Positions 6,008 through 7,843 of a stretch of DNA of 24,502 nt are shown one piece after another. The first letter of the stretch is position 1, and each line of letters opens with the position of its first letter. Position numbers and translations under genes: made by a program. The stretch comes from a virus (Duplodnaviria > Heunggongvirae > Uroviricota > Caudoviricetes): IMG/VR virus record IMGVR_UViG_2718217868_000003. The stretch is one strand, 5' to 3'. The notes beneath the pieces were generated by a model that had not been told where the DNA came from, searched no databases, and was given only the letters and a program-made list of their open reading frames with translations.

Positions 6008-7843
6008 GTGAAACGACTACAATCATTAAAAGAAGCAAAAACAAAACCAGACTTGGCTAAGCTATTAGGAATCAAACCTTCAGCGTTAACATACTGCCTA
6101 TATGTATTAAAACCTGAAAATCAATACACACAGTTTAAGATACCAAAAAAAAATGGCGGCGAACGGATAATAAGTGCACCTAACGGAATATTAAAGACGA
6201 TACAGTCATCCTTATCAGGACTGCTTCTAGATTGCTTAGACGAAATAGTTTGCATTAAGTTTCCAGACTCAGAGTTAGCAAGGCAGAAAGCAAAAAACTC
6301 AAAAATATTAAAGTTAAAATGTTCCAACTCAGAAATCAAACAACCCTCACTGTCTCATGGATTTGAAAGAAAGCGTTCAATTATTACAAATGCAATGATG
6401 CATTTGGGGAAAAAATATGTTTTTAATATAGACTTGGATAATTTTTTCGGCAGTTTTAACTTTGGTAGAGTCCGAGGTTTTTTCATAAAAAATAGAAACT
6501 TTGCACTCGATCCGGAAATCGCAACTGTAATTGCTAAAATTGCGTGCTACAACAATGAACTACCCCAAGGCAGCCCATGCTCCCCAGTAATCACTAATCT
6601 AATCATTCACTCGTTAGACATTAAACTGGCAGCGATTGCATCAAGAAACTCATCCACTTTTACAAGATATGCTGATGATATTACATTCTCTACGAGGAAG
6701 GGGGCGTTTCCTTCTGCTATAGCAAAAAATCAAAATGGTAAATATATCGTTAGTAAGAAAATTAGGGGCGAGATAACTCGCTCAGGTTTTATAATTAATG
6801 ATGGGAAGACAAGAAATCAGTATAAAGACTCGAGGCAAGATGTAACAGGCTTAGTGGTTAATAAAAAGCCAAACACGAAAAAAGAATATTGGAGGCTTGT
6901 GCGTGCGCAATGTGACCATTTATTTAAACATGGTGAGTTCTTAGAGGTGATTGACGGCAAGGAAATAAAGGGGAATGTTAATAGCCTTGCAGGCAAACTT
7001 AACTTCATAGACCAAGTTGACCACTATAATAGATTGCGTCAAGGCGAAAAATTAAATCCAAAATATCACTTAAAAAAAGATGCCAATAAAAATGGCCATG
7101 CCAAAAAAAGGCGTTACTTGCATAGTTCTAGAGAAAAAACGTTTAGTGAGTTTCTCTTCTATCGTTTATTTTATGGCAATGAATTACCAACAATTCTTAC
7201 GGAAGGTAAAACTGACAATATTTATCTGAAGGCAGCAATACATAAGTTAGCCTCATCATTCCCTAATTTGGCGGTAGCTGAAAGTCCAGGGCTCTCTTAT
7301 AAGCCACGGACTAAATTTGTTAACTACAATGAGCGGACAAAATATTTACTTGAACTTTATGGTGGCGCTGATTATTTAAAGGATTTTGTTATTCATTATA
7401 AACAACACTTTAATCGTTATAAGGCTCCCAAACCATCTAATCCAGTAATTATACTTGTTGATAATGATAGCGGACCAAAAGATCTGATTAATTACGTTAG
7501 TAAAGTTGATAATATTGGTATTTTCCCCACAGGTGTTCCAGATATCCGCGCCTCTGAGTTTGTACATATTTTTTGTAATCTTTATTTAGTGCTTACCCCT
7601 CAAGTTAAGGGATATACAGGAACTGATATAGAGCATTTTTTTAAAGATGCAGATCGACTTAGACCACATAAAGGTAAGTTTTTCAATACAGTCTCTAAGC
7701 GTGATCATGATAATGATTTGAGCAAGGAATCTTTCGCAACTCATATTGTTCATGCCCACAAGCATGAAATTGATTTTAGTGGATTTACAAGCCTGTTAGA
7801 ACGGTTAGTAAAAGTCATAAATCACTTTGACACTGTTAAGTAA
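6008..7843 (+). CDS. Retron-type reverse transcriptase fused to a C-terminal Toprim-like domain (RT-Toprim, Retron-Eco2/Ec67-like architecture)
   Basis: 611-aa ORF, GTG start. RT motifs NIDLDNFFGSF, LPQGSPCSP, YADD (nt 6668-6679) and retron-typical VTGLVVN. C-terminal ILTEGKTD (E at nt 7202-7204) and ILVDNDSG (DxD from nt 7460) match Toprim catalytic signatures. Gene is markedly more AT-rich than its neighbours. Confidence 0.85.
   Translation: MKRLQSLKEAKTKPDLAKLLGIKPSALTYCLYVLKPENQYTQFKIPKKNGGERIISAPNGILKTIQSSLSGLLLDCLDEIVCIKFPDSELARQKAKNSKILKLKCSNSEIKQPSLSHGFERKRSIITNAMMHLGKKYVFNIDLDNFFGSFNFGRVRGFFIKNRNFALDPEIATVIAKIACYNNELPQGSPCSPVITNLIIHSLDIKLAAIASRNSSTFTRYADDITFSTRKGAFPSAIAKNQNGKYIVSKKIRGEITRSGFIINDGKTRNQYKDSRQDVTGLVVNKKPNTKKEYWRLVRAQCDHLFKHGEFLEVIDGKEIKGNVNSLAGKLNFIDQVDHYNRLRQGEKLNPKYHLKKDANKNGHAKKRRYLHSSREKTFSEFLFYRLFYGNELPTILTEGKTDNIYLKAAIHKLASSFPNLAVAESPGLSYKPRTKFVNYNERTKYLLELYGGADYLKDFVIHYKQHFNRYKAPKPSNPVIILVDNDSGPKDLINYVSKVDNIGIFPTGVPDIRASEFVHIFCNLYLVLTPQVKGYTGTDIEHFFKDADRLRPHKGKFFNTVSKRDHDNDLSKESFATHIVHAHKHEIDFSGFTSLLERLVKVINHFDTVK

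What the first reader, a model, noticed from the sequence alone, without database searches (positions are those of the whole stretch)
6008..7843. Retron-type reverse transcriptase fused to a Toprim nuclease-like domain, carried as an AT-rich cargo gene in a prophage
The 611-aa ORF has the retron RT motif set (NIDLDNFFGSF, LPQGSPCSP, YADD at 6668-6679, retron-typical VTG) and a C-terminal domain with Toprim catalytic signatures: TEGKTD (E at 7202-7204) and VDNDSG (DxD from 7460). The gene is far more AT-rich than the flanking phage genes, implying separate acquisition. RT-Toprim single-protein retrons (Retron-Eco2/Ec67 class) are anti-phage defence systems; this copy is diverged and in a different prophage context, so it may be a new variant.
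Basis: partly seen in the sequence, partly recalled or inferred. Interest (0 to 1): 0.9.

Follow-up and report, generated by a model that had tools for sequence, protein, structure and literature searches.

The report
Ec67-family retron in Qin-like prophage
This is an intact but ordinary anti-phage retron of the known RT-Toprim (Ec67/Eco2, type I-C) family, carried as a small AT-rich cassette in a defective E. coli prophage. Public databases already annotate it as such, so it adds an untested family member, not a new kind of system.

Summary
A 611-aa ORF (6008-7843, GTG start) carries the RT motifs and the Toprim EGKTD and DND motifs at the stated coordinates. Its GC content is 35%, against 48-49% in the flanks.

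I also located the missing half of the system, a 133-nt msr-msd ncRNA at 5856-5988. It has a1/a2 repeats, a branching G at 5868 and a predicted msDNA of about 72 nt. This ncRNA is conserved from Yersinia to Shewanella.

The 2.26-kb cassette (5656-7917) recurs at 99.6% identity in a different prophage. Here it sits in the slot that holds relBE in K-12 Qin.

RefSeq already names this protein (WP_032206437.1) "retron Ec67 family". ncRNAs with the same a1/a2 repeats are catalogued in the retron census. It is therefore an uncharacterised member of a known, mechanistically solved family.

By homology, msDNA cages the Toprim domain, phage nucleases destroy the msDNA, and the freed nuclease cuts tRNA. 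Interest is low to moderate.

The parts
5656..7917 (+). Mobile retron cassette: leader, promoter, ncRNA and a single RT-Toprim gene.
   Evidence: Megablast finds this interval at 99.5-99.6% identity in about 13 further complete E. coli genomes with different flanks. Junction alignments against the e14-like context L004 place the edges at about 5656 and 7917. The left edge is shared with Yersinia locus L005. GC is 35.9% against 48-49% in the flanks.
5822..5849 (+). Putative sigma-70 promoter of the ncRNA-RT transcript. -35 TTGCGT at 5822-5827, 16-nt spacer, extended -10 TGtTAAGGT at 5841-5849. Predicted transcription start about 5856.
   Evidence: T5844, A5845 and T5849 of the -10 are invariant in 9 loci from 8 genera, while the surrounding sequence varies. 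The -35 TTG and the -10 are conserved in Yersinia. The strict consensus scan did not report this site, so it is an inference.
5856..5988 (+). Retron ncRNA (msr-msd), 133 nt.
   Evidence: Perfect 12-bp inverted repeat at its ends. Conservation begins and ends exactly at a1 and a2 in 10 distinct homologous loci. It aligns with the ncRNAs of other Ec67-family retrons, including Eco2.
5856..5867 (+). Inverted repeat a1 (GGTTTATGGGCA).
   Evidence: 100% complementary to 5977-5988. In the a1/a2 helix, 7 of 13 pairs show compensatory changes across Ec67-family subtypes, and 100% of cells are paired.
5868..5868 (+). Predicted branching guanosine, whose 2'-OH would prime msDNA synthesis.
   Evidence: It is the invariant G immediately 3' of a1, in the conserved GGCA-G-AUUU context. 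This aligns with rG15 of Eco2 (Eco2 numbering from PMC12405507). By homology only.
5875..5891 (+). msr stem-loop (GGUCGCG-UUU-CGCGAUC).
   Evidence: Predicted in the single-sequence and alignment folds. It is homologous to the Eco2 RNA stem-loop within rG20-rU42. Two of 7 pairs are compensatory, 2 vary on one side only, and none is broken in 13 sequences.
5904..5975 (-). msd template. The predicted msDNA is the reverse complement, about 72 nt: 5'-TCTTACGCAAACTTGACAAG...CCTATCGGAC-3'.
   Evidence: The start and stop rules are transferred from Eco2 (dT1 opposite the A two nt 5' of a2; stop at the G after AAU). They are consistent with sequenced RT-DNA of census relatives Mestre-1016 and Mestre-953. 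The ends could be off by a few nt.
5919..5953 (+). Variable centre of msd, corresponding to about nt 23-57 of the predicted msDNA.
   Evidence: Mean pairwise identity is 56% here, against 94% for 5856-5918 and 97.5% for 5954-5988 in 10 loci. The RT ORF DNA identity is 69-82%.
5977..5988 (+). Inverted repeat a2 (TGCCCATAAACC).
5995..5998 (+). Shine-Dalgarno-like GAGG, 9 nt upstream of the GTG start.
   Evidence: Read directly from the sequence. The homologs carry AGGTG/GGTG at the same place, and their GTG/ATG starts align.
6008..7843 (+). RT-Toprim fusion gene, 611 aa (RefSeq WP_032206437.1).
6008..7042 (+). Retron RT domain (aa 1-345), including the thumb. YADD at 6668-6679 and VTG at 6842-6850.
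   Evidence: Pfam RVT_1 covers aa 45-282 at E=6e-16. It is 45.5% identical to the Eco2 RT part. YADD and VTG are invariant in the family.
6260..6349 (+). Clade-specific, lysine-rich insertion in the RT fingers (aa 85-114), absent from Eco2.
   Evidence: A gap of about 25 aa in the Eco2 alignment. The insertion is conserved within the 611-aa clade consensus. AF2 confidence is low for aa 96-130.
7148..7840 (+). Toprim (OLD-like) nuclease domain, aa 381-611. Residues and their codon coordinates: E399 7202-7204; D403 7214-7216; D485/D487 7460-7468; D540 7625-7627; E542 7631-7633; K573 7724-7726.

Best explanation
This is a complete type I-C (Ec67/Eco2-family) retron. It comprises one promoter, a 133-nt msr-msd ncRNA (5856-5988) and a single RT-Toprim fusion gene (6008-7843). 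It is carried as a 2.26-kb AT-rich cassette in a defective Qin-like E. coli prophage.

**Proposed mechanism, by homology with Eco2**
1. The ncRNA folds through a1/a2 pairing.
2. The RT domain binds the msr hairpin and primes on the 2'-OH of G5868.
3. It copies the msd template (5975 back to about 5904) into a branched msDNA of about 72 nt.
4. msDNA and RT-Toprim assemble into an oligomer (a trimer in Eco2) in which the msDNA cages the Toprim active site.
5. During infection, phage DNA nucleases (DenB-like or A1-like) degrade the msDNA.
6. The released Toprim nuclease cleaves tRNA or other RNA, stopping translation and aborting the infection.

**Shown here**
- Domain architecture and intact catalytic residues.
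- Fold of the protein.
- ncRNA anatomy, conservation and covariation.
- Cassette mobility.

**Inferred**
- msDNA synthesis.
- Oligomerisation.
- Trigger, RNA targets and defence phenotype.
For: - **Family profiles over the full length:**
- **Closest solved structure is Eco2**, by sequence (E=1.8e-137; 41% identity) and by predicted fold.
- **Catalytic residues.** Residues shown by mutagenesis to be essential in Eco2 (E374, D378, D460, D462, E515) are present and invariant here as E399, D403, D485, D487 and E542.
- **ncRNA.** It has a1/a2 repeats, the conserved GGCA-G-AUUU branch context, an msr hairpin and the GCGUAAGAG-UGCC template start shared with Eco2. All 20 tested pairs are kept in all 13 sequences, and 9 are compensatory.
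- **msDNA ends.** RT-DNA sequenced from census relatives starts and stops at the homologous positions.
- **Selection and mobility.** The cassette is 99.3-100% conserved in about 20 of 5426 complete E. coli genomes, in at least two prophage contexts.
- **Eco2 mechanism:** PMC12916289 and PMC12405507.
Against: - Identity to Eco2 is only 41%.
- There is an insertion of about 25-30 aa in the fingers. The segment that forms the only protein-protein trimer contact in Eco2 (residues 325-347) is not conserved in sequence and is modelled with low confidence (aa 343-365). Stoichiometry and caging geometry may therefore differ.
- The metal-B ligand S513 of Eco2 is D540 here.
- The msd sequence is unrelated to that of Eco2, so the DenB cleavage sites do not transfer.
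- A census relative with identical a1/a2 and msr (Mestre-991) gave no RT-DNA detectable by PAGE or sequencing when expressed in E. coli.
- No experiment exists for this locus.
Confidence: 0.85

Rival explanations
1. It is a genuine I-C retron, but the 611-aa clade works differently from Eco2 in trigger or output. It might sense something other than DenB/A1-type nucleases, assemble with another stoichiometry, or cut DNA or bulk RNA rather than tRNA. The clade-specific finger insertion and its own msd would account for the difference.
For: - 41% identity to Eco2, with 37% in the Toprim domain.
- A conserved lysine-rich insertion at aa 85-114.
- The trimer-contact loop is not conserved.
- S513 of Eco2 is D here, at a metal site.
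- The centre of the msd is hypervariable while the rest of the ncRNA is nearly frozen.
Against: - All catalytic residues and the overall architecture are shared with Eco2.
- The protein scores on the same PADLOC sub-models as Eco2.
- The ncRNA scaffold elements are homologous.
Confidence: 0.15
2. Its main role in this context is as an addiction or stabilisation module (toxin-antitoxin-like: Toprim as toxin, msDNA as antitoxin). It would help retain the prophage remnant, with phage defence being secondary.
For: - It occupies exactly the slot that holds the relBE toxin-antitoxin operon upstream of hokD in K-12 Qin.
- The isolated Eco2 Toprim domain is toxic, and Eco2 expression slows growth.
Against: - Eco2 has demonstrated broad anti-phage activity.
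- The same cassette occurs in unrelated contexts: an e14-like prophage end, P4-like satellites and integrase islands. This fits a portable defence gene.
- The TA-like behaviour and defence are not mutually exclusive.
Confidence: 0.08
3. It is a decaying, non-functional remnant inside a cryptic prophage.
For: - The surrounding prophage is full of pseudogenes.
- Truncated or split copies exist elsewhere: H20 carries only the Toprim half, and Hafnia has split ORFs.
- A relative, Mestre-991, gave no detectable RT-DNA.
Against: - The ORF is full length with every catalytic residue intact.
- The ncRNA and promoter are intact and identical to those of other genomes.
- There are only 4 aa differences between copies in different prophages.
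Confidence: 0.04

Closest known systems
Retron-Eco2 (Ec67), type I-C1 retron of E. coli. Structures: PDB 9I2F, 9I2G, 9S1F and 9LM3.
   Same: - A single RT-Toprim polypeptide with the ncRNA immediately upstream.
- YADD, VTG, EGxxD and DxD motifs.
- Homologous ncRNA scaffold: a1/a2 repeats, GGCA-G-AUUU branch context, a 7-bp msr hairpin with a 3-nt loop, a 9-nt single-stranded spacer ending in AAU, and a template start at GCG(U/A)A(A/G)GA-G-UGCC.
- The same best PADLOC sub-models.
- A prophage-borne cargo gene.

   Different: - 41% aa identity overall (RT 45.5%, Toprim 37%).
- An insertion of about 25-30 aa, lysine-rich, in the fingers.
- A divergent loop in place of the Eco2 trimer contact (residues 325-347).
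- D540 in place of S513.
- Unrelated a1/a2 and msd sequences.
- Predicted msDNA of about 72 nt rather than 67 nt.
- It sits in a lambdoid Qin-like prophage (and at an e14-like prophage end). A closer Eco2 relative, L002 (57% identical to Eco2), sits between the replication and portal genes of a P2-like prophage.

Predicted I-C retrons Mestre-991, Mestre-1000 and Mestre-1016 of the retron census (Khan et al. 2024 preprint, PMC10849725, supplementary file 3).
   Same: Mestre-991 and Mestre-1000 have the same a1/a2 (GGTTTATGGGCA / TGCCCATAAAC). Mestre-991 also has an identical msr up to the poly-A spacer. Mestre-1016 shares the msr architecture and the GCGTAAGAG template start, and its sequenced RT-DNA (CTTACGCA...GGACA) matches the start and stop predicted here.
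   Different: - Their msd sequences differ from the window's; the exact window ncRNA is not in that file.
- Mestre-991 gave no RT-DNA by PAGE. None was tested for defence in that study.
Class 2 OLD-family nucleases and Gabija GajA (Toprim nucleases).
   Different: - No ATPase domain, and fused to an RT instead.
- About 10% sequence identity.
- The Eco2-type domain cuts RNA/tRNA, whereas OLD and GajA act on DNA (established knowledge).
Type XI (RT-protease) and type XII (RT-TIR) retrons.
   Same: The RT domain belongs to the same RT clade (PADLOC 312-324 bits on the RT part; NCBIfam Retron_TIR 280 bits).
   Different: Only the RT part aligns (aa about 83-354). The score is below the cutoff (280 against 600). 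The effector domain here is Toprim, not TIR or protease.

Membership tests
Retron type I-C (Ec67 family RT-Toprim fusion) | Full-length match to the family-specific profile, above the curated threshold. | tested here: met
   NCBIfam NF038237 retron_Ec67_fus scores 738.8 bits against a cutoff of 450, covering aa 4-607 and profile positions 1-572 of 572. PADLOC RT-Toprim_I-C scores 734 and 732 bits over aa 1-609.
Retron type I-C (Ec67 family RT-Toprim fusion) | Retron-clade RT domain with the catalytic YADD motif and the retron-typical VTG motif. | tested here: met
   Pfam RVT_1 at E=6e-16. YADD at aa 221-224 and VTG at aa 279-281, both invariant in 45 homologs. The best structural neighbours after Eco2 are the retron RTs Eco1, Eco7 and Eco8.
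Retron type I-C (Ec67 family RT-Toprim fusion) | C-terminal Toprim domain in the same polypeptide, with motif IV EGxxD and motif V DxD (Mestre et al. 2020, PMC7736814). | tested here: met
Retron type I-C (Ec67 family RT-Toprim fusion) | msr-msd ncRNA directly upstream of the RT, closed by a1/a2 inverted repeats, with a branching G at the 3' end of a1. | tested here: met
   The 12-bp perfect repeat at 5856-5867 and 5977-5988 lies 20 nt upstream of the start codon. G5868 sits in the conserved GGCA-G-AUUU context. 100% of cells are paired, and 9 of 20 pairs show compensatory changes, against 0-2 in the slid controls. Conservation is sharply bounded by a1 and a2 in 10 loci. Rfam has no matching family.
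Retron type I-C (Ec67 family RT-Toprim fusion) | Single-gene system with no separate effector ORF. | tested here: met
   The conserved cassette 5656-7917 contains only this ORF. The neighbours differ between contexts.
Retron type I-C (Ec67 family RT-Toprim fusion) | Production of branched msDNA with a 2'-5' linkage. | not testable with these tools
   Only predicted: about 72 nt, the reverse complement of 5904-5975. Relatives in the census gave mixed results.
Retron type I-C (Ec67 family RT-Toprim fusion) | Anti-phage defence that depends on both the RT and the Toprim active sites. | not testable with these tools
   Shown for Eco2 only.
Subtype I-C1 (Eco2 subtype), as opposed to I-C2 or I-C3 | DxD rather than the DxE signature of I-C2, and phylogenetic grouping with Eco2. 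| tested here: inconclusive
   DND excludes I-C2 (definition). The window and Eco2 rank the six PADLOC I-C sub-models the same way: 02963/02966 first, then 02964/02967, then 02965/02968. That favours I-C1. However, no tree with labelled I-C1 and I-C3 references was built.
OLD-family nuclease (ATPase plus Toprim) | N-terminal ABC-type ATPase domain. | tested here: not met
   No ATPase hit in Pfam, NCBIfam or PADLOC. The N-terminal part is an RT.
Group II intron RT/maturase; DRT2 | Score above the curated family threshold. | tested here: not met
   TIGR04416 scores 44 bits against a cutoff of 300. Drt2 scores 32.8 bits against 390.

The most novel reading that the evidence does not exclude
The 611-aa clade could be a functionally distinct I-C sub-lineage.
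- The protein and about 100 nt of the ncRNA scaffold (94-97.5% identical from E. coli to Shewanella) are frozen.
- Only a window of about 35 nt in the centre of the msDNA (56% identity) diversifies.
- That window corresponds roughly to the segment that forms the three-way junction caging Toprim in Eco2.
- It could be a rapidly evolving 'bait' that sets which phage nucleases or anti-retron factors trigger the system. The lysine-rich finger insertion could provide a different msDNA path or stoichiometry.
Probability: 0.15. Interest if true: 0.5.

Novelty: new member of a known kind. Interest (0 to 1): 0.25.

Why it matters
It matters modestly. Retron Eco2 is currently the only type I-C retron with a structure and a mechanism.

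This cassette is a natural, compact homolog (2.26 kb, one gene plus an ncRNA) at 41% identity. It comes from a large, widespread clade with a well-defined ncRNA. Testing it would show which Eco2 features are general to I-C retrons:
- the trimer
- msDNA caging of the Toprim domain
- the DenB/A1 triggers
- tRNA cleavage

The pattern of conserved and variable segments in the ncRNA shows which part of the msd can probably be replaced, which is useful for retron engineering.

The location adds one more example of interchangeable defence and toxin-antitoxin cargo at a fixed lambdoid prophage slot, since relBE occupies this slot in K-12 Qin.

None of this changes current understanding. Standard tools (PGAP, PADLOC) already identify the gene correctly.

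Tried and rejected
- **Rfam.** There was no match to the ncRNA at gathering thresholds over the whole window or at E<=10 over 5600-6020. Rfam has no usable model for this ncRNA, so the ncRNA was defined by comparative analysis instead.
- **Generic Pfam Toprim models.** These are not significant: OLD-like_TOPRIM reaches E=0.098 on the C-terminal fragment. I did not take this as refutation, because the family HMMs and the fold agree.
- **Covariation within the 611-aa clade alone.** There was none, because the paired regions are invariant. Covariation appeared only after adding other Ec67-family subtypes.
- **Single-sequence fold of the ncRNA region.** z=-1.55, which is not significant on its own.
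- **msDNA hairpin.** DNA folds of the predicted msDNAs are weak (-3 to -7 kcal/mol, z between -1.3 and +0.6), and no structure is clearly shared. This is consistent with the Eco2 report that the msDNA does not form an intramolecular hairpin. An apparent excess of 6-bp palindromes at msDNA nt 20-30 is not above the roughly 1/64-per-position expectation, so I dropped it.
- **Strict sigma-70 scan.** It found no + strand promoter upstream of the ncRNA. The promoter proposed here rests on cross-genus conservation.
- **Isolated phage genomes (INPHARED).** The cassette is absent: one irrelevant 148-bp hit.
- **Literature.** Searches for WP_032206437 and for the ncRNA sequence found nothing in main texts. 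The supplements of Mestre et al. are not held.
- **Eco2 proper in complete E. coli genomes.** It was not recovered by distant blastn. I rebuilt the Eco2 protein from the PDB alignment and took the Eco2 ncRNA from the census supplement. That sequence matched the one I had recalled and tested.
- **Alternative families.** Group II intron RT, DRT2, and RT-TIR or RT-protease retrons were considered and rejected on scores.
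Full report
**1. The observation**

The ORF is real. It runs from 6008 to 7843 on the + strand, has a GTG start and encodes 611 aa.

| Motif | Residues | Nucleotides |
|---|---|---|
| NIDLDNFFGSF | aa 140-150 | 6425-6457 |
| LPQGSPCSP | aa 185-193 | 6560-6586 |
| YADD | aa 221-224 | 6668-6679 |
| VTG | aa 279-281 | 6842-6850 |
| TEGKTD (E399) | aa 398-403 | E399 at 7202-7204 |
| VDNDSG (DND) | aa 484-489 | DND at 7460-7468 |

The gene is 35.3% GC, against 47.9% and 49.4% in the flanks. 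The GTG start is supported by a GAGG 9 nt upstream. It is also supported by aligned GTG/ATG starts in homologs of the same length.

**2. What the protein is**

Family-specific profiles match over the whole length:
- PADLOC RT-Toprim_I-C scores 734 bits over aa 1-609.
- NCBIfam NF038237 'retron Ec67 family RNA-directed DNA polymerase/endonuclease' scores 738.8 bits against a cutoff of 450.

Generic Pfam sees only RVT_1. For the C-terminal fragment it gives a sub-threshold OLD-like_TOPRIM hit at the EGKTD motif (E=0.098). The Toprim assignment therefore needed structural support.

The closest solved structure by sequence is retron Eco2/Ec67 (9I2F, 9LM3; E=1.8e-137). It is 41% identical over 608 columns: 45.5% in the RT part and 37% in the Toprim part.

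An AlphaFold2 model built from 45 homologs has mean pLDDT 79, and about 90 for aa 380-611. Its structural matches are:
- Eco2 in Foldseek at E=1e-50 and TM about 0.6.

Residues whose alanine substitution abolishes Eco2 defence or RNase activity are E374, D378, D460, D462 and E515. They align with E399, D403, D485, D487 and E542 here. S513 of Eco2 is D540 here. All of these, plus K573, YADD and VTG, are invariant in the 45-sequence alignment.

Differences from Eco2:
- An insertion of about 25-30 aa, lysine-rich, in the RT fingers (aa 85-114).
- A non-conserved loop where Eco2 has its only protein-protein trimer contact.
- Both regions are modelled with low confidence.

**3. The other half of the system: the ncRNA**

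A perfect 12-bp inverted repeat lies just upstream of the gene: GGTTTATGGGCA at 5856-5867 and TGCCCATAAACC at 5977-5988.

I fetched loci encoding homologs that are 72-85% identical, from Yersinia, Xenorhabdus, Serratia, Enterobacter, Vibrio, Pantoea, Aeromonas and Shewanella. Seven IMG/VR contigs were found with an ncRNA pattern. Together with the window these gave ten distinct versions of the region.

Conservation switches on exactly at a1 and off exactly at a2. Mean pairwise identities are:

| Region | Identity |
|---|---|
| 5856-5918 | 94% |
| 5919-5953 | 56% |
| 5954-5988 | 97.5% |
| RT ORF DNA (window vs seven homologous loci) | 69-82% |

Inside this clade the helices are invariant, so they carry no covariation signal. 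I therefore added the ncRNAs of two other E. coli Ec67-family retrons, L002 and L003, and that of Eco2. In that alignment the a1/a2 stem and the 7-bp msr hairpin are 100% paired in 13 sequences. Nine of 20 pairs change on both sides, against 0-2 in the slid controls and 0 of 500 shuffles.

The Eco2 ncRNA I first used came from memory. It reproduced the published numbering: rG15, stem-loop 20-42, spacer 43-51, duplex 52-62, and a 67-nt msDNA with dC at positions 15, 17, 31 and 37. I then found it printed in the retron census supplement.

By alignment with Eco2:
- G5868 is the branching guanosine.
- The hairpin at 5875-5891 is the RT-recognised msr stem-loop.
- The template starts at A5975, giving dT1.
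- The template ends near G5904, giving a predicted msDNA of about 72 nt.

RT-DNA sequenced from census relatives supports these ends to within a few nucleotides. Mestre-1016 reads CTTACGCA...GGACA, and Mestre-953 behaves the same way.

A -10 element (TGtTAAGGT, 5841-5849) lies 7 nt upstream of a1. Its T, A and T positions are invariant across genera. A TTG -35 at 5822 is shared with Yersinia. Together these make a plausible promoter, although the strict consensus scan did not list it. Rfam has no family for this RNA.

**4. Context and mobility**

The window is a defective Qin-like prophage beside ynfE-rspB in E. coli. It is 100% identical to strains H5 and H6 over the 2.9-kb query (window 5400-8300).

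The retron lies between a DUF977 gene and hokD/sok. In K-12 Qin the relBE operon occupies that slot, and homology to K-12 resumes at 8391.

The interval 5656-7917 recurs at 99.5-99.6% identity in about 13 other complete genomes. There are 4 aa differences between the window and the L004 copy. One such context is the end of an e14-like prophage, next to a GIY-YIG gene. The left edge is shared with the Yersinia locus.

About 20 of 5426 complete E. coli genomes carry this retron. About 21 others carry more distant Ec67-family retrons. Homologs in other genera sit in P4-like satellites, integrase islands and similar hotspots. The cassette is not in sequenced phage isolates.

**5. Mechanism**

For Eco2, two structural studies show the following (PMC12405507, PMC12916289):
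- A 3:3 RT-Toprim:msDNA complex forms in which the msDNA cages the Toprim domains.
- Phage nucleases (DenB, A1) start msDNA decay.
- The freed Toprim domain cuts RNA or tRNA and shuts down translation.

The architecture, catalytic residues and ncRNA scaffold are shared, so the same logic is the best-supported mechanism here.

Shown here:
- Domain architecture, residues and fold.
- ncRNA anatomy, conservation and covariation.
- Cassette mobility.

Inferred:
- msDNA synthesis.
- Oligomeric state.
- Trigger, RNA targets and phenotype.

Reasons for caution:
- 41% identity to Eco2.
- The finger insertion and the divergent contact loop.
- The unrelated msd.
- Mestre-991, which has the same a1/a2 and msr, gave no RT-DNA by PAGE.

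**6. Comparison with what is known, and novelty**

Every sequence-level defining feature of type I-C retrons was tested and met. DND excludes subtype I-C2. The window and Eco2 rank the PADLOC sub-models identically, which favours I-C1, though no labelled tree was built.

RefSeq already names WP_032206437.1 correctly. ncRNAs with the same repeats were already predicted by Mestre et al. and synthesised in the census. I found no paper describing this particular retron.

It is therefore a new, uncharacterised member of a known and mechanistically understood kind, not a new variant. The most novel reading still open is that the clade is a distinct sub-lineage whose hypervariable msd centre tunes trigger specificity (probability about 0.15).

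**7. Verdict**

Novelty is low and interest is about 0.25.

Noticed in passing
window 5554-8391, compared with K-12 Qin (L023 5100-5900): The retron cassette occupies the slot immediately upstream of hokD, where K-12 Qin carries the relBE toxin-antitoxin operon. Homology to K-12 resumes at window 8391. This looks like an exchangeable cargo slot between the replication genes and hokD in Qin-like prophages.
   Followed up: partly
window 5856-5988, and loci L005-L020: The ncRNA ends (94-97.5% identity) are far more conserved across genera than the RT coding DNA (69-82%). A central msd segment of about 35 nt (5919-5953) is only 56% identical. The a1/a2 repeats are identical from E. coli to Shewanella, which is unusual because a1/a2 normally covary freely.
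   Followed up: partly
window 8236-8560: A hok/sok type I toxin-antitoxin locus lies directly downstream of the retron: an Rfam sok match at 116.5 bits over 8236-8407, and a hokD ORF ending at 8560.
   Followed up: no
window 11705-12097 and 14596-15012: Two cspA-type thermoregulator 5' leaders match in Rfam (150.5 and 110.1 bits). They belong to the prophage cold-shock genes cspB and cspI and coincide with further AT-rich patches in the window.
   Followed up: no
window 20965-21163: A full-length Rfam match to the sRNA family IS009 (226.7 bits) lies in the tail-fibre region of the prophage remnant.
   Followed up: no
NZ_CP135688.1 3546362-3547291 (hit H20): One E. coli genome holds only window 6932-7861, the Toprim half of the gene, at 99.7% identity, annotated 'hypothetical protein'. 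The isolated Eco2 Toprim domain is reported to be toxic, so a truncated copy is curious. Split copies of 250 aa and 237 aa also occur in Hafnia paralvei.
   Followed up: no
L002 1056-4979 and L004 3868-7188: Other copies or relatives sit next to further defence-like genes. An Ec67-family retron in a P2-like prophage (between the replication endonuclease and portal genes) lies beside a LA2681-family HEPN gene. The e14-like copy of this cassette lies beside a LEM-3-like GIY-YIG nuclease gene.
   Followed up: no
Eco2 residue numbering (PMC12405507) compared with window K573 (7724-7726): The paper names K562 as the catalytic lysine of Eco2, but residue 562 in the PDB chain alignment is an Asp (KIDFK). 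The lysine that is invariant in the family alignment is window K573, which aligns with Eco2 K546. This may be a numbering discrepancy in the paper or a different residue.
   Followed up: partly
window 5656-5855 and L005 2656-2854: The 200-bp leader upstream of the ncRNA belongs to the mobile cassette and is 67% identical to the Yersinia locus, starting from the same left edge (GCTTTGTGCCAGAGGCGGAC). It contains conserved patches (GTGAYATTAATCACA, TGAATTnGTTAATTG) and a repeated TTGTAAAGG. Their function is unknown; they may be regulatory.
   Followed up: partly
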